Source: Candidatus Rifleibacteriota bacterium
GTDB taxonomy: Bacteria; Muiribacteriota; UBA6191; JACPRK01; JACQZM01
Assembly (NCBI GenBank): GCA_016213885.1
Contig: JACQZM010000117.1
Coordinates: 1-19,079, forward strand
Reading direction: 5' to 3'
Length of the DNA stretch: 19,079 bases
This document shows positions 2,551-16,490 of the stretch, in pieces; the first letter of the stretch is position 1, and every line of letters starts with the position of its first letter. A program made the translations under genes and the position numbers. A model generated the notes under the pieces. That model searched no databases. It was not told the DNA's origin and saw only the letters and a program-made list of their open reading frames with translations.

Positions 2551-4434
2551 ATGTTCAAGATGTTCCTCTGGATCCTTCTCTCCATCGCGATCATGCTCGG
2601 GCCGATCACGGTTCCGGTGCTGCAGCAGCATCTGAACTACCCTGCCCAGGTCATCGTCTCCGGGTTCGGCTTCTTGATGTTCATAGGCGGGCTGTCCGTG
2701 GTCACGATCACCCGGCTCTACATCCGCCCCGCCGCCAACGAGGCGTTCGTCCGCACCGGCATGGGAGGGACCCAGGTGGTGCTCGACGGCGGCGCCTACC
2801 TGATCCCGGTGGTGCACCAGCTCGTCAAGGTGCCGCTCACCACCACGCGGCTCGACGTGGACCGGTCCGGCCCCGACTCGCTCATCACGGCGGACAAGCT
2901 CCGGGCCGACCTGAAGGCCGAGTTCTACATCCGGGTGATGCCGCAGGTCGAGGACATCAAGACCGCGGCCCGGTCGTTCGGCGACCTGGCGGGCCAGCCG
3001 CAACGCATCGCCCAGATCGTGAACGACAAACTGATCAGCGCCCTGAGGTCCGTGGCTGCGAACAAGACGCTGGAAGAGCTCAACACCCGCCGCAACGAGT
3101 TCGCCGCGGAGGTGAAGCAGCAGGTGGAGGCAGACCTCAAGCACAACGGACTCACCCTGGAGACCGTGACGATCTCCAAGCTCGACCAGACCGATCCCAA
3201 GAACCTGAAGGCGGACAACGTGTTCGACGCGCAGGGGCTGAAGCGGATCACGGAGATCACCACGGAGGCGGCGGTGCGCAGGAACGAACTGGAGCAGGCG
3301 GCCCAGCAGGCGATCAAGGAGCGCAACGTCAAGACCCGGCAGCAGGTCCTGCTGCTGGAGCAGCAGCAGGCCGAGGCGGAGGCGAACCAGCAGGCCCAGG
3401 TCGCCAAGGTGAAGGCGGTCAAGGACGCCGAGGCTCGCCAGGCCCAGATCGAGCAGGAGCAGGCGGTGCAGGAGCGTGAGGTGGAGCGGGTGCGAGCCAT
3501 CAAGGCAGCGGAGCTGGACGCCCAGAAGAAGGTGCTGGAGAGCGAGCGCGTCCGGGAGCTGGCCGACGTGGAGAAGCAGAAGGCGATCGAGACGGCTAAC
3601 CAGGAGAAGCAGATCGCCGTGGCCCAGGCCCAGGCCCAGCGCGCCCAGGCGGAAGAGCAGCAGTACGCCAGGATGGCCGAAAGAGAGAAGTCGGTGCAGC
3701 AGGTCGAGACCGTGAAGGTCACCGCGGCGGCGGAGCGCGACGGCGAGCAGAAGCTGATCGCGGCCTCCAAGGCGGCGGAGCAGGAGCTGGTGCGGGAGCA
3801 GCGCAAGGCCGATGCGGCGGCGTACAAGGTGCTCAAGGAGGCGGAGGCGAAGAAGGCCGCTGCCCAGGCCGAGTACGAGGCCAGGCTGAAGGCTGCCGAG
3901 GCGGAGGCCGAGGCTGCCAAGAAGAGGGCCGAAGGGGCCACCGCGGAGGCCATGGTGCAGGTGACCGTGCAGCAGAAGCAGGTGGAGGTCGAGCAGCAGC
4001 GGGTCGAGGTGGAGGGGCACCGGCTCTCGATCCAGGAGAGCTACGGCCGCGCGGCCATCGAGCTTCAGCTCAGGATGAGAGAGCTCGAGGTGGCGGCCCA
4101 GGTGGAGGTCGCTCGGGCCCAGGCGCTGGGCACCATGCTCTCCCGGGGCAACTTCACGATCTACGGCGACCCGGCCACCCTGTCCAACCTGGCCGAGGCG
4201 TTCAACAAGGGGATGGGGTTCCGGCAGATGGCCGAGGGGTTCCTGTCGGGTCAGGCGGGGGCGAGCCCGCTGGGCGGCCTGGTGAGCGCCGCCGCCGATC
4301 TGGCCGCCAAGCTGACCCGGCCCGACGGGGCCAAGGCTCCGGCGGACCAGCCCGCCGCGCCGCCCCCGGCTCCGCCGATGGACCAGGCTGCGCCCGCGGA
4401 CCAGGCCGCGCCGGGGCCGACGAAGAGCGCCTGA
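2551..4434 (+). CDS. Flotillin-family SPFH/Band-7 domain protein (YqiK/FloT-like) with long Glu/Ala/Gln-rich coiled coil and Pro/Ala-rich C-terminal tail
   Basis: ATG at 2551 preceded by AGGAGG (2534-2539). Shows an N-terminal TM helix (MFLWILLSIAIMLGPI), then an SPFH core (YIRPAANEAFVRTGMGG…VVLDGGAYLIPVVHQL…TTRLDV…LITADKLRADLKAEFYIRV). About 300 aa of EAEA/QQ coiled coil follow, then a 'GFLSGQAGASPLGG' tail typical of flotillins. Confidence 0.9.
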   Translation: MFKMFLWILLSIAIMLGPITVPVLQQHLNYPAQVIVSGFGFLMFIGGLSVVTITRLYIRPAANEAFVRTGMGGTQVVLDGGAYLIPVVHQLVKVPLTTTRLDVDRSGPDSLITADKLRADLKAEFYIRVMPQVEDIKTAARSFGDLAGQPQRIAQIVNDKLISALRSVAANKTLEELNTRRNEFAAEVKQQVEADLKHNGLTLETVTISKLDQTDPKNLKADNVFDAQGLKRITEITTEAAVRRNELEQAAQQAIKERNVKTRQQVLLLEQQQAEAEANQQAQVAKVKAVKDAEARQAQIEQEQAVQEREVERVRAIKAAELDAQKKVLESERVRELADVEKQKAIETANQEKQIAVAQAQAQRAQAEEQQYARMAEREKSVQQVETVKVTAAAERDGEQKLIAASKAAEQELVREQRKADAAAYKVLKEAEAKKAAAQAEYEARLKAAEAEAEAAKKRAEGATAEAMVQVTVQQKQVEVEQQRVEVEGHRLSIQESYGRAAIELQLRMRELEVAAQVEVARAQALGTMLSRGNFTIYGDPATLSNLAEAFNKGMGFRQMAEGFLSGQAGASPLGGLVSAAADLAAKLTRPDGAKAPADQPAAPPPAPPMDQAAPADQAAPGPTKSA

Positions 4435-4439
4435 GGCCC

Positions 4440-4483
4440 CGGGTCCGACCTACCGGCTCGACCAGAGCGTGGCGATCGCCTGC
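4440..4483. repeat. 44-bp perfect direct repeat of 5199..5242 (last 11 codons + stop + 10 nt of 3' flank of the kinase gene)
   Basis: cgggtccgacctaccggctcgaccagagcgtggcgatcgcctgc occurs identically at 4440-4483 and 5199-5242. The first copy starts 6 nt after the flotillin stop. Confidence 0.85.
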
Positions 4484-4485
4484 GA

Positions 4486-4727
4486 ACCACCAGCCAGGCG
4501 AGGCAGAAGCCGTCCCATCGGCGAGGAGCCCGGGCCGGTTCCGGCGCCTCGGCGGCCGGGCCGGACACCCTGGCACACTCCGGGGAGCGCTCTCCGGCAC
4601 CGGGCTGACCGACGCGCGATCGGAGCGATCCGATCCGGCCGGTCCGGAGGTGAGTGCCCCCGGGGTACGCGGGATCTTCGGCGGGTTGCACGCGCACCGT
4701 GAGACGCTCGGGAGGGTGCCGGGCAGG
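4486..4727 (-). pseudogene. Displaced, degenerate fragment of the 3' region of the kinase gene (homologous to 6167..6429), joined directly to the 44-bp terminal repeat; lacks the ~920 bp encoding the membrane domain
   Basis: By eye, ~240 bp align with 6167-6429 at roughly 90% identity. The first ~95 nt are identical. Later differences include 9-nt and 11-nt indels that break the kinase frame. The translated fragment (ORF 4251..4697 '-': RVQPAEDPAYP…EAPEPARAPRRWDGFCLAWLVV) mirrors the kinase linker region RVHPAEDPAYP…WDGFCLAWLVV. Confidence 0.7.
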
Positions 4728-4735
4728 GGGGTGGG

Positions 4736-4930
4736 ATCGGAACTGGGATCAGATTTCGAGGGTGCCATCTTGGCGGTGTACCCCACAGCGTCCAGGATCG
4801 GAGTGTTGATGATCGTGATGGACGACCCGGTGTCCAGCAGGCAGGTCACGTCCCGGAAGCCGAAGGGACCGTGAACTCGCGCCTGGACCCAGACCTCCCG
4901 CTCCTTGGGGTCAAACCTGACGGTCCACAC
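4736..4930 (-). pseudogene. Retropepsin-like (clan AA) aspartic protease, only the N-terminal ~65 codons including the DTGSS active-site motif; 3' part replaced by the displaced kinase fragment (six-frame ORF 4202..4930 reads through into it and into antisense flotillin)
   Basis: GTG start at 4928-4930 overlaps the stop of the upstream small gene by 20 nt. Reads 'VWVQARVHGPFGFRDVTCLLDTGSSITIINTPILDAVGY', matching the strand / D-T-G-S/A / hydrophobic pattern of bacterial retropepsin-like domains (Asp_protease_2 type). The flap and C-terminal 'hhG.D.L' elements are missing, because homology to the kinase-fragment repeat begins at ~4727. Confidence 0.5.
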
Positions 4931-5156
4931 GGAGCGCCGCCCTCAGCTTCTCGCCTCGCTTCTTCCCGGTCCACACGATCGCTGCCTCGTTCAGGTGCTT
5001 GGCCATCTCGATGAGCGTGGCGTGATCCGGGCTGTGCGCATAGACGATCCCGGAGAGCGGAACGGGCTCCGTGTTCGGCCAGACGTGGTCCACCAGAGCG
5101 ATCCACTCGTCGGCGTACGTCTCCTTGATTTCGTCCCAACTCAGCTTGTCGGCCAT
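4911..5156 (-). CDS. Small DUF5678-like protein (81 aa) often found with retropepsin-like protease genes
   Basis: ATG at 5154-5156 with GAAGGAG 8 nt upstream on the minus strand. The sequence 'ETYADEWIALVDHVWPNTEPVPLSGIVYAHSPDHATLIEMAKHLNEAAIVWTGK' fits the DUF5678 pattern ('GEWVAI … GKVVAHG.D…L.E.AK … I'). The stop overlaps the protease GTG start. GC is lower than neighbouring DNA. Confidence 0.55.
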   Translation of the reverse strand: MADKLSWDEIKETYADEWIALVDHVWPNTEPVPLSGIVYAHSPDHATLIEMAKHLNEAAIVWTGKKRGEKLRAALRVDRQV

Positions 5157-5198
5157 CTATCTGGCTCCTTCGGCAAGATCCGTCGCTCAAGCATAACT

Positions 5199-5242
5199 CG
5201 GGTCCGACCTACCGGCTCGACCAGAGCGTGGCGATCGCCTGC
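5199..5242. repeat. Second copy of the 44-bp direct repeat (inside the 3' end of the kinase CDS)
   Basis: Identical to 4440-4483. Contains the kinase stop codon (cta at 5209-5211 on plus = TAG on minus). Confidence 0.85.
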
Positions 5243-8200
5243 AAGACAGCCACGCCCAGCGTGCTCAGCACCCCGATCCACCACCGCCGTCGCTTCATCT
5301 CGCTGGCCAGAAGGGCCAGCGAGCCCACGATGGCGATCGGCGTGACCGCGAAAAAGAAGAACACCCGGTCGCCGGAGGAGGAGACATTCTGCAGGGCCAG
5401 CGACACGGCAGACACCGCCAGCGAGCTGACGAGCAGCACCCACGGCTGGACCGAAGGGTGCCCGCAGAACGCCCGGAACGCGAGGAGCGTGCCCAGGTAG
5501 GTCGCGACCCAGAGCGAAATCGCGAGAGCGGCACCCGCCCTGCTCTCCACGACGGCGATGAACGAGACCCAGAGGAGTGCCAGGATGCCCAGACGGTAGC
5601 TCACGCGCGGGGGCAGCTCCGGGGCCGGGTACAGCAGCTGGGAGAGAAACAGGACCACCGCCGGGCCGAAGGAGGCGACCAGCTGCACGAGGGGGTCGAG
5701 CTTGCCCTCGATGATCGCGTGGACCCCGAGGGTCAGTCCCAGCCAGAGGCCAAGCAGCGCGCCGCGGAGCTTCCAGGGCGAGAGCACGACCTGACGGCCG
5801 GGATAGAACATCAGGGCGAAGACCAGCGCCGGGACCGAGAGACAGACCCCCACGAGGAACGCCTGCTGCCCCTGCGGGCGGGGGACCAGCAGCGGGATCG
5901 CGATCATCACGATGACGGCATGGCCACCGAGGACGGCGAGAACGGTCCGTCTGCCGATCGGTTCGCAGGGGAGCTGCAGGTGGAGCGACCCTGCCGTCGC
6001 CGAGGCGCCGGGAGCAAAGCCCGCGGGCCAGCGGCACCAGGGCAGGACCATCAGCGCGATGACGCCGGCGTAGAGTCCCATGAAGAATGACGTCTCGGGG
6101 TACCACCCTTGTCGGGGGCACAACCCGGCGAGTCCGCTCAGCGGGAACCAGAGGACCGCGACCAGGACCACCAGCCAGGCGAGGCAGAAGCCGTCCCATC
6201 GGCGAGGAGCCCGGGCCGGTTCCGGCGCCTCGGCGGCCGGGCCGGACACCCCGGCACGCTCCGGGGGAGCGCTCTCCGGCACCGGGCTGACCGGCGCGCG
6301 ATCGGAGCGATCCGGTCCGGCCGGTCCGGTCGGTCCGGAGGTGAGCGCCTCCGGCCGATCCAGGGGGTACGCGGGATCCTCGGCGGGGTGGACGCGCACC
6401 GTGAGACGCTCGGGAGAGTGCCGGGCAGGCCAGACAGGATCCGATGAGTCCCGGGCGCCTCTCTCGATCGGAGGGGAGATGCGATCCGCGAGGCCGACCC
6501 GGGCGAGCGCCTGACTGAACTCCGAAACGAGAGCTCCGACCGTCCGGGGTCGCTCGTCACGCTGCTTGGCCAGAGCTCGCAGCACCACCGCCGCGACCGG
6601 GGAGGGCACGCCCTCCGGTTCCGGCACGGGCGCGTTCTGGATCGCCCAGGCGAGGTCGCCGCCGGAGAATGGCGGGGAGAGGGTCAGCATCTGGTAGAGC
6701 GTGGCCCCCAGGGCGTAGACGTCCGACCGCACGTCGAGCTTCTGACACGCCATCTGTTCGGGACTCATGTACGCGAGGGTGCCGGTCGGCACCATCCCGG
6801 TCTGGCGCGTCCGGAAGCTCGCCAGCTCCGCGGCGACTCCGAAATCGGCCAGCTTCGCTCTCACGCACCCGTCCGGTCCGGTCTCGAGCAAGACGTTCGA
6901 TGGCTTGAGGTCCCGGTGGATGATCCCGTGGTGGTGGGCGTGGTCGAGCGCAGCGGCCACCCCCTCCAGGATCGGCAGAGCCTCCCGTGGTGTCATCGGA
7001 CCGGCGTCGCTCTCGTTCCGGGAGGCCAGCTCGTCCGCCAGCGTCCGACCTGCGACGAACTCCATCACCAGGAAGGGAGGGTCGCCAGGCTCCAGGTTCA
7101 TCAGCCGGACGATGTTCGGATGGGTCAGCTTGAGCGAGAGCCTGGCCTCCTTGATCAGGTTCGTCCGGGATTCGCTGTCGCACCAGAGCTCGAGGGGGAG
7201 CAGCTTCACGGCCACCTCGCTCCCCTCCATGGCGCCGTCCCTCGCGAGCCACACCTGGCCCATGCCGCCGTGACCCAGAAGACGAACGAGCCGGTACCGG
7301 TCCGCCAGCATCCGCCCTTCGACGGGGTCGAACCGGTCCGGCGGGGGCGGTTTCGGCCGCTTCGGGGAGCTCTTCTTGCCCGGCGCGACGGTCCGGTAGA
7401 TCCGGAGCAACGCCTTGCGGAACTCCGACGCCCCCTGGAATCGTCGCGCGGGGTCCTTCTCCAGCGCCCTCTCGATCACCTCGTCGAGCTCCCCGGGAAG
7501 ACCGGGCCTGACCGAGCTGGCCAGGGGAGGCTCGGTCATCATGTGCTGGTAGAGGTGCTCCGGGATCGTCGGGCCCGGGAACGGGAGCTGACCGGTGACG
7601 ACCTCGAACAGCACGACCCCGACGGCGTACAGGTCGCTCGCCGGTGTGCACCGCTGTCCGCGACACTGTTCGGGCGACATGTACGCCGGGGTCCCCATGA
7701 TCTTCCCCGCGACCGTTCCGGACGGAAGGTGCTGCGCCCTGGCGAGGCCGAAGTCGCCGATCTTGGGCTCACCCTCTCGCGAGAGGAAGATGTTGGCGGG
7801 CTTCAGGTCCCTGTGCACCACCCCCTTGTCGTGGGCCACCTTGAGTCCTCCCAGAACCCTGAGCACGATGCGCAGGGCCTGTCGCAAGGAGAGGCGCGTC
7901 GGGTCTCTCAGGCGCTCTTGCAGCGAAGAGCCCTCCACGTACTCGCACACCACGTAGGGCAGGCCGCCGTCGTGGCCGGCGCCGTGGACCGCCACGATGT
8001 TCGTGTGGTTCAGGGAGGCCAGGACCTTCGCCTCCTTGACGAGCCGCCGGATCTGTTCGGTCGAGAGCTCGTCCCCTCTGACCACCTTCACGGCGACCAG
8101 CCGGTCGAGCTCGATCTGACGCGCCAGGTAGACCTTTCCCATCCCGCCCTCGCCCAGCGTCCTGATGATCCGGTACTGGGTCATGAAGGCCTGGGAGAAC

Positions 8201-13661: not shown

Positions 13662-14564
13662 CTAGCGCAGGCCGATCGCCTGGAAGTAGCTGCCGCCGCC
13701 CTTCTCGTCCGGCACCCAGAGCGAGCGGCCGTAGGCCCGGTCGTGCACCGCCACCTCGAGCTCCAGCTTCCGGCCTCCCACCTCGAAGCGCCGGGAGGCC
13801 CTCAGGCGGGCCAGGTCGTGGGCGAAGCGGAAAAGCGGGTAGTCCTTGAACCGCTTGGCGCTGGGGTCGCGCCGGAAGCCCTCGGACTGCATCTCCCACG
13901 CCAGGTGGCCGAAGAAGGCGAGGATGTCCACCAGCTCTCCCGGCGCCCTGTTCGCCGCCGTGACGCCAAGAGCATAGGCCGCGCTCAGGTGACGCAGAAA
14001 GACGTCGGGATCGAACGGCGGGATCTCGAGGTCGCCCAGGAACCGGGCCGTCGCCTCGCCGACCGCCTCCGGGTCCAGGGCGAGGCCTCGCAGCACGGTC
14101 CGCCGGGCGAACTCGACCTGGGCCCGGCCCGCCGCCGCGTCGATGACGATGCGGATCGCCCCGCAGGCGAACCCGTTGTCCGTGGGTTTCAGTTCCGGCC
14201 CTTCCGGGAGCAGTCTCGCAAGCGTCGCGGCCAGGGCGGTTCCGAAACGGGCAGCCGCGCGGCCCTCCGCGGCACGGGCCGCCTCTTCCAGGCCGTCCAG
14301 CGCCGGCTCGACGTTCGGTGCGCCGGCGACCTTCGAGGCCAGGTCCCGCAGGTGCTTCACCGAATCGAGCACCTGTCGAGGCGCCGCCTCGAGTCGTGGC
14401 ACCTGCTTGGCGAGCGTGGCCACGGCCCGGTCGAGCTCCGCGGCCAGCTTGGCGGCCCGGGAGGTCTCGACCCGCAGCGTCTCGAGGCGCTCGATGGTGG
14501 ATCGGTGGGCGCCGGGCGGCGCCGGCTGGTCGGTCTCGTCAGGCATGTCGCCATTGTAATACAT
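13662..14564 (-). CDS. Hypothetical protein (300 aa), predicted coiled-coil N-terminal third, no recognisable catalytic motif
   Basis: Clean ORF 18 nt upstream of brxD-like and 51 nt downstream of the 624-aa gene. The AT-rich start 'ATGTATTACAATGGCGACATGCC' is unusual for this genome. Heptad-like region 'TIERLETLRVETSRAAKLAAELDRAVATLAKQVPRLEAA'. Confidence 0.65.
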   Translation of the reverse strand: MYYNGDMPDETDQPAPPGAHRSTIERLETLRVETSRAAKLAAELDRAVATLAKQVPRLEAAPRQVLDSVKHLRDLASKVAGAPNVEPALDGLEEAARAAEGRAAARFGTALAATLARLLPEGPELKPTDNGFACGAIRIVIDAAAGRAQVEFARRTVLRGLALDPEAVGEATARFLGDLEIPPFDPDVFLRHLSAAYALGVTAANRAPGELVDILAFFGHLAWEMQSEGFRRDPSAKRFKDYPLFRFAHDLARLRASRRFEVGGRKLELEVAVHDRAYGRSLWVPDEKGGGSYFQAIGLR

Positions 14565-14615: not shown

Positions 14616-16490
14616 TCAGAGGCGTGTCTTCGAAGGCGGCGCGAGCGCCGCGGCGGTCAGGAGCCTGCCGCGCAGCTTCTCCGGGGCGATCGACGCCTGC
14701 GGATCGAGGTCGTCGAGGATGTCCAGGACACGGTCGGCTCCGTCGATGCACGTCCGCCGGTCGGTCGTCTTCGACAGGAGCCAGAGATCGGCCCCTCCGC
14801 TGGTCAAGCCGAGCTCCCGCCGCAGCACCGCCCGGACCCGCTCCATCAGCTCCGGCATCGGCCTCAGCGTCCGGGCCAGCGACCCGGCGGTGCCCACACG
14901 GTACGAGAGCACCGCCCGGACATGATAGGCGACGCCCTCGAGGCGCACGACGTAGCCGGTCCGGTACAGCTCCTCGTGCGCTCCGAGAACCTGGTGAGCG
15001 CCGCTCGTCGTCCCGGCCACGAGCCGGTCCCGGATCGTGTCGAGCAGGCCCTTCTCGTAGCCCGCCCCGAGCTGGTCGGGGGTCAGGAACGGCGAGGCGA
15101 GGAAGGTCAGGAGCCCCCGGCCGAGGATGCGACCGTCCCCCCGCGGGCCCGGACGGATCTCGAGGGGGCGCTCGCCGAAGCCCCGGGCCAGAACGTCCAG
15201 GATCCCGCGGGCGACCCGGTCCGGCAGGTGGACGCACCGATCGACGTCGAGGGTGCTGGCTTTCGAGACCGTACGAGCCACCACGAGCCAGTAGTCCGAC
15301 GCGATCCGCAAGGCATCGAACTGTTCCAGGAGATGAGGCGCGGCCGCGGCCGGCACGTGGGGCCTGCGGGATCGACCCGGCGAGCGCGGGGCGGACTCCG
15401 ACGCCTCGGCCGCGGGCGCGACGGCGGCCGGACCCGGGGCGGTTCCGGACGGTGGCGGCTCCGGCTTGCGCGTGCAGCGACCGCAGCCGGGTTTCTCGAG
15501 GTCCCGGTGCCCCACCAGGACCTGGGTCGGCTCGCCACAGGAGGGGCAGTCCGGGAGGTCCACGGCGCCGACGACGACGTCGTAGCGCACCGGAACCCGG
15601 TGGGTCTCGGTCCCCTTCCACAGCAGCATCGAGGTGACGAACCGCGGGACGTGCAGCACCTCCACCGCCGCGACCCGGGCCTCGACGCGGGGGCGGTACC
15701 GGAGCTCGGTCTCCTTGAGCCGCATGTCGCGCTCGGCCTGGACAGCGGCGAGCATCTGGGCGGTCTTGAGGACCGAGTCGGCGGAACGGCTCCTGGAAGC
15801 CTTCGCCGCTAGCTCCTCCTCGCGCTGGCGGAAGTAGGCGCTGACCCTGCGCTCCTCCTCGGCCCGCTGGAGCTCGAGCTCTGCCGCCAGCGTCCGGAGC
15901 CGTTCGGTGGTGACCCTGTCGAGCTGGGCCAGGGTCGAAGCGACCACGAGCTCCGGCCCGACCTCGACGTCCAGCGGCAGGACGAACTGTCGGCCGCTCT
16001 GGAGGTTGAGTCGGTCGACCTCCGCGCGGTAGCGGTCCGCGGGCCGGCCGGTGGTCGCATCGATCCAGACCGGGCAGGCCACCTGCTGCACCACGTCGCC
16101 GTGGATGGAGATCACGAACTGCACGTTGAGCAGCCGACCCTCCATCAGGCGGCCCGGGCCCAGCTCGGCGAACCGCAGGCGGTCGAAGGTCAGGCACTCC
16201 CTCAGCCGGTGCTCCACCAGCGACGGGTCGACCGATCGGGCCGGCGCGTGGAGATGCTGTACCCGACCGGAGGCGAGCGTCCGGATGAGCGCCTCCTCGA
16301 GCCGCGGGCTGCCGAACGTCACCAGCTCGCGGGACGGCTTCTCCGCCGCTGCCTCCGGATCGAACGTGAGCTCCACCGGCGCCCCGTCCTCCGGCGTGGC
16401 CAGGTAGACTCCAGGCTCCGTCTCGACGGCGCCGTGGCCGAGGATCTCCAGGTAGCCCAGCAGGAAATCCTGGATCAGCGTCCGGTCCAT
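14616..16490 (-). CDS. Hypothetical protein (624 aa) with internal C4 zinc ribbon (DCPSCGEP…x15…GCGRCTRK), Pro/Ala-rich linker and ~250-aa C-terminal domain
   Basis: ORF ends 3 nt after the SNF2 gene stop (16490 vs 16494), suggesting translational coupling. No Walker, nuclease (PD-(D/E)xK, HNH, PLD HxK) or methyltransferase motifs found by eye. Confidence 0.7.
   Translation of the reverse strand: MDRTLIQDFLLGYLEILGHGAVETEPGVYLATPEDGAPVELTFDPEAAAEKPSRELVTFGSPRLEEALIRTLASGRVQHLHAPARSVDPSLVEHRLRECLTFDRLRFAELGPGRLMEGRLLNVQFVISIHGDVVQQVACPVWIDATTGRPADRYRAEVDRLNLQSGRQFVLPLDVEVGPELVVASTLAQLDRVTTERLRTLAAELELQRAEEERRVSAYFRQREEELAAKASRSRSADSVLKTAQMLAAVQAERDMRLKETELRYRPRVEARVAAVEVLHVPRFVTSMLLWKGTETHRVPVRYDVVVGAVDLPDCPSCGEPTQVLVGHRDLEKPGCGRCTRKPEPPPSGTAPGPAAVAPAAEASESAPRSPGRSRRPHVPAAAAPHLLEQFDALRIASDYWLVVARTVSKASTLDVDRCVHLPDRVARGILDVLARGFGERPLEIRPGPRGDGRILGRGLLTFLASPFLTPDQLGAGYEKGLLDTIRDRLVAGTTSGAHQVLGAHEELYRTGYVVRLEGVAYHVRAVLSYRVGTAGSLARTLRPMPELMERVRAVLRRELGLTSGGADLWLLSKTTDRRTCIDGADRVLDILDDLDPQASIAPEKLRGRLLTAAALAPPSKTRL

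What the first reader, a model, noticed from the sequence alone, without database searches (positions are those of the whole stretch)
4736..5156. Lower-GC mini-cassette: DUF5678-like small gene translationally coupled to a truncated retropepsin-like aspartic protease
The two ORFs overlap by 20 nt (…CGTGTGGACCGTCAGGTTTGA). This region looks clearly less GC-rich than its surroundings, though that needs computing. The protease retains the DTGSS catalytic motif but stops being protease-like after ~65 codons, where the kinase-fragment repeat begins. It is therefore a decayed or interrupted horizontally acquired pair.

DUF5678–retropepsin pairs are poorly characterised and TA-like in organisation. 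Its location directly 3' of the kinase inside a defence island is suggestive of an accessory or abortive-infection-type module.
Basis: partly seen in the sequence, partly recalled or inferred. Interest (0 to 1): 0.55.

Follow-up and report, generated by a model that had tools for sequence, protein, structure and literature searches.

The report
Broken two-gene defence-candidate cassette remnant
This is an imported two-gene cassette (a small unknown protein plus a retrovirus-type aspartic protease) of a kind already listed as an untested anti-phage candidate, and here the protease gene has lost its last 60%, so it is a decayed copy rather than a working system.

Summary
On the minus strand, an intact 81-codon gene (A, 5156-4911) overlaps by 20 nt a GTG-started ORF (B, 4930-). 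The cassette has the lowest GC in the contig (0.62 vs 0.705).

B resembles its relatives for only 55 codons, ending at 4765 rather than ~65 codons. It keeps DTGSS but lacks the C-terminal ~76 codons. It then runs through 37 unassigned nt into an out-of-frame copy of kinase DNA (4486-4727, 4440-4483).

A has no DUF5678 HMM support. Relatives match only the first 18 of 49 profile positions, below threshold. The B fragment is below the Pfam threshold, but intact orthologues pass (37-49 bits).

A-B is a conserved module. B lies directly downstream of A in 52 of 64 metagenomic loci, and the genes overlap in 55 of 56 pairs. The module matches PADLOC's untested candidate PDC-M08: intact B partners reach 1e-12, and 48 of 84 A relatives match M08A.

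Verdict: a horizontally acquired, decayed, divergent PDC-M08-like cassette beside a BrxD/BrxH-like defence cluster. A TA-like mechanism (A restrains protease B) is inferred only.

In passing: the protease is disrupted in several other loci, and some cassettes are flanked by duplicated 3' ends of host genes.

The parts
5165..5170 (-). Shine-Dalgarno-like AAGGAG, 8 nt upstream of the ATG of gene A
   Evidence: Read directly from the sequence. No terminator-like site lies between the kinase stop (5209) and gene A, so co-transcription with the kinase is plausible. That is an inference.
4911..5156 (-). Gene A: intact 81-aa small protein (NCBI MBI4859995.1, 'hypothetical protein HY815_06990'). It belongs to an unannotated family related to PADLOC PDC-M08A.
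   Evidence: The ORF is. Codon-position GC is 0.63/0.40/0.85, which is gene-like. All six nearly invariant family residues are present: I10, W18, G36, V38, H41, G64. The family has 240 cluster representatives at E<=1e-3 among 1.84 billion. 48 of 84 members hit PDC-M08A, best E 8e-6, but the window protein itself does not. dN/dS against the closest relative is 0.36.
4766..4930 (-). Gene B remnant: the first 55 codons of a ~131-aa retropepsin-like aspartic protease, with DTGSS at codons 33-37 and a GTG start 20 nt inside gene A
   Evidence: Protein and DNA similarity to relatives L002-L013 runs from 5157-5161 to exactly 4765. PF13650 covers profile positions 1-36 of 90 at 19.4 bits. PDC-M08B gives E 9e-4. 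Full-length partners are 127-140 aa and cover the whole model.
4728..4764 (.). 37-nt junction filler of unassigned origin between the protease breakpoint and the kinase-derived copy
   Evidence: It aligns neither with protease relatives nor convincingly with the kinase.
4486..4727 (-). L': degenerate copy of kinase linker DNA 6167-6429 (94-98% identity, indels of 1, 9 and 11 nt). ORF B reads it in a non-kinase frame.
   Evidence: The longest exact run is 85 nt. Codon-position GC for the rest of ORF B (4202-4735) is 0.75/0.83/0.73, which is not gene-like.
4440..4483 (-). E': exact 44-nt copy of the kinase gene's 3' end (last 34 nt of the ORF including the stop, plus 10 nt), joined out of frame to L'
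   Evidence: (family D7, 100% identity).
5199..5242 (-). E: the resident 3' end of the intact kinase gene, and the left-hand copy of the 44-nt direct repeat that brackets the cassette
6167..6429 (-). L: the resident kinase linker segment whose copy L' lies downstream of the cassette
4202..4765 (-). Spurious 3' extension of ORF B (187 codons). It passes through filler, L', E' and the antisense of the SPFH/flotillin-like gene's 3' end.
   Evidence: There is no GC3 periodicity. It overlaps the convergent gene 2551-4434. It has no relatives (alignments).

Best explanation
The locus is a horizontally acquired, now decayed copy of a conserved two-gene cassette. The upstream gene A encodes a small alpha/beta protein of about 80-90 aa. 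The overlapping downstream gene B encodes a homodimer-type retropepsin-like aspartic protease of about 131 aa. The cassette family is a divergent branch of what PADLOC lists as the untested phage-defence candidate PDC-M08.

Shown:
- In this window A is intact.
- B is cut after codon 55 and fused to junk derived from the neighbouring kinase gene.
- B keeps the catalytic-loop motif DTGSS but lacks the part of the gene that encodes the flap, the second psi-loop and the C-terminal dimer strand. No active protease can be made here.

Inferred, about 0.35 probability for the intact system:
- B is the harmful or effector component.
- A is its translationally coupled inhibitor, in an antitoxin-like arrangement.
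- Loss of B with retention of A would then be the usual one-sided decay of such modules.

The cassette probably arrived by recombination that used the kinase 3' region as its homology or attachment point. This left a displaced, degenerate copy of that region downstream.
For: Anatomy.

Foreign origin: the cassette has the lowest GC in the contig, while in the closest relatives the module GC equals that of their flanks.

Family and conserved pairing:
- 240 representatives for A.
- B lies directly downstream in 52 of 64 loci with enough room.
- The A stop and B start overlap in 55 of 56 pairs.
- Intact B partners exceed the Pfam cut-offs for PF13650/PF13975.

Link to PDC-M08:
- Intact B partners hit PDC-M08B at 1e-12 to 1e-10, and the window fragment at 9e-4.
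- 48 of 84 A relatives hit PDC-M08A.
- PDC-M08 is a two-gene cassette (FAM_03167>>FAM_00414, 381 RefSeq occurrences). [quoted passage not shown]

Context:
- In the window the neighbours are a kinase, BrxD-like, BrxHI/SngC-like and SNF2 genes.
- Relatives lie next to type I RM plus Abi_C, AbiEi and HepT.

One-sided decay: A is intact while B is truncated, frameshifted or stop-containing in L001, L010-L014, L085/L086 and the window.

Fusions: the A domain is fused to DUF5615/PIN in one protein and to DUF433 in another.

No C-terminal half of B exists elsewhere in the window.
Against: - The window's A protein gives no direct hit to PDC-M08A, DUF5678 or any other library model. Its assignment is transitive, through relatives.
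- No experiment exists for PDC-M08 or for this family.
- A has no recognisable DNA-binding or antitoxin fold, and its model has no structural neighbour in the PDB.
- Many disrupted B genes come from low-coverage metagenome contigs, where frameshifts may be sequencing errors.
- The loci were found through A, which biases the apparent 'A intact, B broken' asymmetry.
- Several B clades have non-canonical motifs (DPGA, HPGA, DTAA), so B may not always be an enzyme.
- The contig is a single MAG assembly with an 85-nt exact internal repeat, so part of the rearrangement could be an assembly artefact.
Confidence: 0.7

Rival explanations
1. Assembly artefact. The truncated protease and its junction to kinase-like DNA arise from a chimeric join in the metagenome assembly, across repeats shared by strain variants. 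The real genome would then have either an intact pair or no pair at this site.
For: The exact A protein is known from one contig only. L and L' share an 85-nt exact run, and E and E' share 44 nt. That is long enough to confuse short k-mer graphs.
Against: - L' differs from L by SNPs and three indels along its whole length, so both sequences exist in the sample.
- The breakpoint at 4765 and the 37-nt filler are not inside any repeat.
- A comparably truncated B is found elsewhere. In L085 it occurs with a flanking repeat, and it is 100% identical in an independent sample, L086. In L014 it occurs as well.
Confidence: 0.12
2. The 242-codon ORF (4930-4202) is a real gene. It would encode a new fusion protein with a retropepsin N-terminal segment and a long Pro/Arg/Ser-rich tail.
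For: The ORF is open for 242 codons. The first 55 codons show low dN/dS (0.15-0.17) against the closest relative.
Against: - Codon-position GC of codons 56-242 is 0.75/0.83/0.73, against about 0.71/0.50/0.89 for real genes in this contig.
- The tail is kinase DNA read in another frame, plus the antisense of the flotillin-like gene.
- Long spurious ORFs are common at 70% GC.
- No homologue of the tail was found.
- The low dN/dS can date from before the truncation.
Confidence: 0.05
3. The remnant is kept because orphan A is useful on its own. It might act as an 'anti-addiction' or immunity factor against incoming intact A-B cassettes, or as a regulator co-expressed with the defence kinase.
For: - A is intact, has a good Shine-Dalgarno sequence, and retains all nearly invariant family residues.
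- dN/dS is 0.36.
- No terminator lies between the kinase and A.
- A occurs without a downstream B in 12 of 64 loci.
Against: - The dN/dS cannot be dated relative to the truncation.
- There is no expression or interaction data.
- Recent decay without selection explains the same facts.
Confidence: 0.2
4. The A-B pair is not a defence or TA module. It is a maturation pair in which protease B processes A, or a neighbouring product, for a housekeeping or signalling role.
For: - No toxicity or defence data exist.
- The C-terminal tail of A is variable and overlaps B's start.
- PADLOC PDC candidates are untested predictions.
Against: - The family has a patchy, rare distribution: 240 representatives in 1.84 billion proteins.
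- Genomic contexts are variable.
- The pair is associated with RM, Abi and TA genes and with islets.
- It decays frequently.
All of these are typical of accessory or selfish modules rather than housekeeping genes.
Confidence: 0.15

Closest known systems
PADLOC phage-defence candidate PDC-M08 (PDC-M08A + PDC-M08B; Payne et al., bioRxiv 10.1101/2024.01.29.577857)
   Same: Both are two co-directional genes in the order small protein then retropepsin-like protein. Intact B partners of this family hit the PDC-M08B models (1e-12 to 1e-10), and 57% of A relatives hit PDC-M08A. Both are found next to or inside defence loci.
   Different: The window copy is truncated in B. Its A is too divergent to hit the M08A model directly. 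The neighbouring cluster is not a canonical BREX, DISARM or type I RM system. PDC-M08 itself has no experimental support.
Pfam PF13650 / PF13975 retropepsin-like aspartic proteases (clan AA; NCBIfam TIGR02281-type)
   Same: The fragment has the N-terminal strand and the D-T-G-S catalytic loop. Full-length family members pass the Pfam cut-offs over the whole domain. They weakly match TIGR02281 at 17-39 bits, below its 58-bit cut-off.
   Different: Only profile positions 1-36 of 90 survive here. Several clades replace DTG with DPG, HPG or DTA. No member has been studied biochemically, and none has a sequence relative among solved structures.
Pfam PF18929 (DUF5678)
   Same: There is a shared short N-terminal motif of the type '(E)I...YP.(E/Q)WV.L(V)D'. 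18 of 84 relatives give weak hits (best E 4e-4), and one fusion protein reaches 21.8 bits.
   Different: Hits cover only profile positions 1-18 of 49 and stay below the 23.2-bit cut-off. The window protein gives no hit. None of 108 members has PF18929 precomputed.
Type II toxin-antitoxin modules
   Same: Both consist of small adjacent genes with a conserved stop/start overlap. Both have a patchy distribution and lie in islets and defence islands. Decay is one-sided, affecting the downstream gene. The A domain occasionally occurs fused to DUF433 or DUF5615/PIN.
   Different: No toxin activity is known for retropepsin-like proteins in bacteria. A has no recognisable antitoxin DNA-binding fold. 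Nothing has been tested.

Membership tests
Pfam PF18929 (DUF5678) | HMM score at or above the gathering cut-off (23.2 bits) over most of the 49-position profile | tested here: not met
   The window protein gives no hit at E<=10. Relatives reach at most 18-21.8 bits, over positions 1-18 only. 0 of 108 members carry the precomputed domain.
Pfam PF13650/PF13975 retropepsin-like (clan AA) | HMM score at or above the gathering cut-off | tested here: not met
   The window fragment scores 19.4 bits on PF13650 (cut-off 24.3) and 16.1 bits on PF13975 (cut-off 28.2). The criterion is met by intact orthologous partners, at 37-49 bits. The gene family therefore qualifies but this copy does not.
Pfam PF13650/PF13975 retropepsin-like (clan AA) | Catalytic Asp-Thr/Ser-Gly motif | tested here: met
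   DTGSS is at residues 33-37 of ORF B.
Pfam PF13650/PF13975 retropepsin-like (clan AA) | Complete fold: flap, second psi-loop (hydrophobic-hydrophobic-Gly) and C-terminal dimer strand | tested here: not met
   Similarity ends at codon 55, equivalent to profile position 36 of 90. No C-terminal half is present anywhere in the window.
PADLOC PDC-M08 | B component matches a PDC-M08B model | tested here: inconclusive
   The window fragment gives E 9e-4 at 17.2 bits. Intact partners of the same family give 1e-12 to 1e-10.
PADLOC PDC-M08 | A component matches the PDC-M08A model | tested here: inconclusive
   The window A gives no hit at E<=1. 48 of 84 family members do, with best E 8.4e-6.
PADLOC PDC-M08 | Gene order A>>B, adjacent and on the same strand | tested here: met
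PADLOC PDC-M08 | Anti-phage activity | not testable with these tools
   The authors list it as an untested candidate. In the window, B is truncated.
Type II toxin-antitoxin module | Two small co-directional, overlapping or adjacent genes that co-occur | tested here: met
   B lies downstream of A in 52 of 64 loci. The genes overlap in 55 of 56 pairs.
Type II toxin-antitoxin module | Antitoxin with a known DNA-binding or antitoxin fold | tested here: not met
Type II toxin-antitoxin module | Toxicity of the downstream product, neutralised by the upstream one | not testable with these tools
   This needs expression experiments.
Integrase-borne genomic islet | Direct repeats of the target's 3' end flanking the insert | tested here: met
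   The window has E/E' (44 nt, 100% identical) plus L/L'. The same logic is seen in L069 and L014.
Integrase-borne genomic islet | Integrase or recombinase gene inside the insert | tested here: not met
   Only A and the B remnant lie between the repeats, a span of 715 nt.

The most novel reading that the evidence does not exclude
The A-B pair would be a tiny mobile addiction or defence cassette that lands at the 3' ends of host genes, including defence genes and tRNA genes, and carries or regenerates a replacement 3' end. Its protease would be a genuinely toxic effector that hosts repeatedly disarm by truncation, possibly at a preferred site, since codons 55-58 were hit independently in the window and in L014. 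This would leave orphan A as immunity against re-infection by the cassette.
Probability: 0.15. Interest if true: 0.6.

Novelty: new member of a known kind. Interest (0 to 1): 0.3.

Why it matters
This copy is a pseudogenised remnant and matters little for the biology of its host.

It is useful as a pointer. It ties a rare, entirely unannotated small-protein family (240 cluster representatives among 1.84 billion) to retropepsin-like proteases and to PADLOC's untested candidate PDC-M08.

It also shows that the pair has a conserved stop/start overlap, that it sits in islets and defence loci, and that it often loses the protease while keeping the small gene.

If the protease is a toxic effector held in check by the small protein, this would be a first aspartic-protease toxin/defence module in bacteria. 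That needs experiments on intact copies, not on this one.

Tried and rejected
- Direct library searches with the window's A protein against Pfam (E<=10), NCBIfam, PHROGs and PADLOC gave nothing meaningful.
- A word-index search with the 55-aa B fragment found no candidates.
- The AF2 model of A from 4 sequences was poor (pLDDT 54). With 84 sequences it reached pLDDT 74.
- The afdb50 library was unavailable.
- Sequence searches of the PDB with intact B and with the A profile gave nothing.
- Rfam found no match in the window or in three related loci.
- The window has no tRNA genes.
- There were no plasmid matches.
- Only one viral contig was found.
- L009 was a false positive, an ABC permease sharing the string LVDHVWPN.
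- The search for the missing C-terminal half of B in the window found nothing credible.
- The promoter/terminator scan was uninformative.
- The literature search found no paper on the function of DUF5678, on PDC-M08 specifically, or on bacterial retropepsin-like proteins in TA or defence contexts.
- I rejected the 242-aa ORF as a real fusion gene, on codon-position GC and its origin from kinase DNA read in another frame.
- I considered tandem duplication followed by deletions as the origin of L'/E' but ranked it below a single recombination event, because it needs more steps. I could not resolve this.

Full report
**What is there**

On the minus strand, a 1051-codon dual Ser/Thr kinase gene with a C-terminal membrane domain runs 8364-5209. 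It is followed 52 nt later by an 81-codon ORF, gene A (5156-4911). Gene A starts with ATG and has AAGGAG 8 nt upstream.

A second ORF, B, starts at GTG 4930, 20 nt inside A, and stays open to 4202.

GC is 0.624 over the unique cassette 4728-5198, against 0.705 for the contig. This is the lowest value of any 471-nt window (0.07% quantile), while the segment just downstream (4440-4727) is 0.753. Codon-position GC is gene-like for A (0.63/0.40/0.85) and for the first 65 codons of B (0.55/0.49/0.82). It is not gene-like for the rest of ORF B (0.75/0.83/0.73).

**Where the protease ends**

Close relatives were recovered through the A protein: P0002-P0004 and loci L001-L007 and L010-L013. They carry the same A gene followed by an overlapping gene whose product aligns with window B from residue 1 to 'YTAKM' (residue 55). 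Beyond that point the relatives continue as a protease and the window does not.

All DNA alignments of relatives to the window start at 5157-5161 and stop at exactly 4765. The breakpoint is therefore at codon 55, not ~65.

Three segments follow the breakpoint:
- 37 nt (4728-4764) that match nothing identified.
- 4486-4727, a 94-98% copy of kinase linker DNA 6167-6429 with indels of 1, 9 and 11 nt.
- 4440-4483, an exact copy of the kinase gene's last 34 nt plus the 10 nt after it (5199-5242).

ORF B reads this kinase-derived DNA in a non-kinase frame. It then runs antisense into the 3' end of the convergent SPFH/flotillin-like gene (2551-4434). The 187-codon tail is therefore spurious. No trace of the protease's C-terminal half exists elsewhere in the 19-kb window.

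**What the two genes are**

The B fragment hits PF13650 at 19.4 bits (E 0.0018, profile positions 1-36 of 90) and PF13975 at 16.1 bits. Both are below the gathering scores. Intact partners from related loci are 127-140 aa and score 37-49 bits over the whole domain, above both cut-offs. They also weakly match NCBIfam TIGR02281, below its cut-off. The gene family is thus retropepsin-like, and the window copy is a fragment keeping DTGSS.

The A protein gives no Pfam hit even at E<=10. A profile of A and its three close relatives found 240 cluster representatives at E<=1e-3 among 1.84 billion proteins. The family is compact, with nearly invariant I10, W18, G36, V38, H41 and G64, all present in the window protein.

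None of 108 members retrieved from the 5.8-billion-protein set carries a precomputed Pfam domain, and every member that carries a source name is called 'hypothetical protein'. 18 of 84 members give weak PF18929 (DUF5678) hits. These cover only profile positions 1-18 of 49 and reach 14.5-21.8 bits, against a cut-off of 23.2. At most, the families share a short N-terminal motif.

An AF2 model of A built with 84 sequences reached pLDDT 74. It shows a beta-alpha-beta-beta-alpha-beta arrangement with no neighbour in the PDB.

**The pair is a conserved module and a known candidate**

- In 73 metagenomic loci found through A, a retropepsin-like gene lies directly downstream in 52 of the 64 with at least 300 nt of room.
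- In 55 of 56 pairs B's start overlaps A's stop, by 1-29 nt and most often 4 nt. The 20-nt overlap seen here is part of a family-wide trait consistent with translational coupling.
- Against PADLOC, intact B partners hit PDC-M08B at 1e-12 to 1e-10, and the window fragment at 9e-4.
- 48 of 84 A relatives hit PDC-M08A, with best E 8.4e-6, although the window A alone does not.

PDC-M08 is a two-gene cassette (FAM_03167>>FAM_00414, 381 occurrences in RefSeq v209). Payne et al. proposed it as a phage-defence candidate because such cassettes are embedded in BREX, DISARM or type I RM loci, and it is untested. I found no other literature on these pairs.

**Context**

The window's minus-strand cluster encodes:
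- an SNF2 helicase (BrxHI/HII- or DrmD-like);
- two proteins with no hits;
- two BrxD/SngB-like ATPases;
- a BrxHI/SngC-like DEAD helicase;
- the kinase, which scores well on the PD-T4-6, mad6 and PglW models, as any Hanks-type kinase would.

The 'defence island' setting is reasonable, though this is not a canonical BREX.

Relatives of the pair have varied neighbours. They lie after a type I RM locus with Abi_C (L085), beside AbiEi (P0178 contig), near HepT (L083), and once inside a Mu-like prophage region (L088). None was found on PLSDB plasmids.

**How it got here and how it decayed**

In the closest relatives the module's GC (0.65-0.68) equals that of their flanks, whereas here it is 8 points below the host. 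This supports import from a lower-GC donor.

The cassette is bracketed by kinase 3' sequences, E on the left and L'+E' on the right. One explanation is a single recombination event anchored in the kinase 3' region. This could be one-sided homologous plus illegitimate joining, or an att-type duplication. It would have displaced the resident 3' segment downstream, where that segment later lost the membrane-domain part. I could not discriminate between these routes.

Assembly chimerism remains possible, given an 85-nt exact shared run and a single contig. It is not favoured, because L' differs from L throughout and the breakpoint lies in unique sequence.

dN/dS against the closest relative (86.5% nt identity) is 0.36 for A and 0.15-0.17 for the B fragment. 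This shows past purifying selection but cannot be dated relative to the truncation.

**Mechanism**

Shown: this copy cannot make a retropepsin fold, because the flap, the second psi-loop and the C-terminal dimer strand are missing.

Inferred for intact copies, at roughly 0.35: B is a dimeric aspartic-protease effector and A is its co-translated inhibitor, as in a TA or abortive-infection arrangement. Four observations point this way:
- the gene order and conserved overlap;
- the patchy, islet- and defence-associated distribution;
- rare fusions of the A domain to DUF5615/PIN or DUF433;
- repeated disruption of B with A intact, in L001, L010-L014, L085/L086 and the window.

Several caveats apply. 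The loci were ascertained through A. Low-coverage contigs may carry frameshift errors. A has no antitoxin-type fold. B clades with DPGA, HPGA or DTAA in place of DTG may not be enzymes.

**Verdict**

This is an ordinary, decayed, horizontally acquired copy of a poorly known cassette that PADLOC already lists as candidate PDC-M08. The DUF5678 label is unsupported, the breakpoint was misplaced by 10 codons, and the function is untested. Interest is modest (0.3).

The side observations may deserve a systematic look in complete genomes. These are the cassettes flanked by duplicated host-gene 3' ends and the two independent truncations at codons 55-58.

Noticed in passing
window 4440-4727 vs 5199-5242 and 6167-6429: The cassette lies between direct repeats made of kinase DNA. 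RecA-type recombination between L (6167-6429) and L' (4486-4727) would delete the kinase's membrane domain together with the cassette. The kinase would then carry a different, out-of-frame tail. Whether such variants exist is unknown.
   Followed up: partly
L014:3971-4412 (contig JADMIO010603814.1): A relative whose A protein is 63% identical has its protease cut after 'YSAKMG'. That is within 2-3 nt of the window's breakpoint (after 'YTAKM'), although each has closer relatives with longer B genes. This suggests two independent truncations at nearly the same codon. With n=2, chance (~2%) cannot be excluded.
   Followed up: partly
L014:3752-3842 and 5520-5560: Here the pair sits in a ~1.7-kb islet bounded by a 41-nt direct repeat that covers the 3' end of tRNA-Phe. 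The islet lies at the end of an array of 18 tRNA genes, and no integrase lies between the repeats.
   Followed up: partly
L069:3797-3913 and 4765-4895: An intact pair lies on an ~850-nt insert in the 3' end of a LysR-type regulator gene. The left copy of the duplicated 3' end completes the gene, with the insert supplying the stop codon. The right copy is a displaced remnant (95.6% identity over 91 nt).
   Followed up: partly
L083:155-2700: Two diverged A-B pairs alternate with three copies of a ~330-nt non-coding repeat (85-95% identical, far more alike than the pairs). The layout resembles a cassette array. No Rfam match was found.
   Followed up: partly
L085:5529-5575, 6371-6417, 7920-7966; L086: The pair lies just after a type I RM HsdR gene and has its protease cut at about codon 36-39. 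It is flanked by a 47-nt repeat, and an independent sample carries an identical sequence. An overlapping stretch just after the upstream copy (5565-5611) recurs at 7920-7966, about 1.5 kb downstream, so this may be a dispersed intergenic repeat rather than a target duplication.
   Followed up: partly
29 related loci vs 128 control positions: Flanking direct repeats of at least 25 nt occur around 5 of 29 A-B modules with enough flank, against 3 of 128 control positions in the same loci (Fisher p 0.006). This is a rough test: the controls are not independent, and the window itself is among the five.
   Followed up: partly
B-family proteins in L001, L007, L010-L016, L040, L041, L044, L063, L064, L075, L077, L079, L081, L083: Several clades of the protease replace the catalytic D-T/S-G with DPGA, HPGA, DPAA or DTAA. 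This suggests inactive or pseudo-protease variants.
   Followed up: no
P0063, P0149; P0006, P0015, P0050, P0055, P0065, P0097, P0154: The A domain occurs fused after a DUF5615/PIN-like domain (P0063) and before a DUF433 domain (P0149). It also occurs as tandem A-A proteins in several representatives.
   Followed up: partly
P0030 (101 aa): This protein has an A-type N-terminus joined directly to a protease C-terminal tail ('GLLGYDVIKQLHFELDGPKSNLIVF'). It appears to be an internal deletion that fused A to the end of B.
   Followed up: no
window 13662-14564 and 14616-16490 (minus strand): Two sizeable genes (300 and 624 aa) lie inside the BrxD/helicase/SNF2 cluster and have no Pfam or PADLOC hit.
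   Followed up: no
window 6299-6339: The kinase linker contains a 9-nt tandem repeat (CGGTCCGGC-like). The 9-nt indel between L and L' is a copy-number difference in this repeat.
   Followed up: no
L088:4965-5632 (IMGVR_UViG_3300013767_000179): This is the only viral-contig instance. An intact pair is inserted, in the opposite orientation, among genes that I recognised by eye as Mu-like phage morphogenesis genes. I did not test that recognition.
   Followed up: no
whole window: The contig is labelled 'Candidatus Riflebacteria bacterium' (MAG) but has 70.5% GC. I did not check the taxonomic assignment.
   Followed up: no
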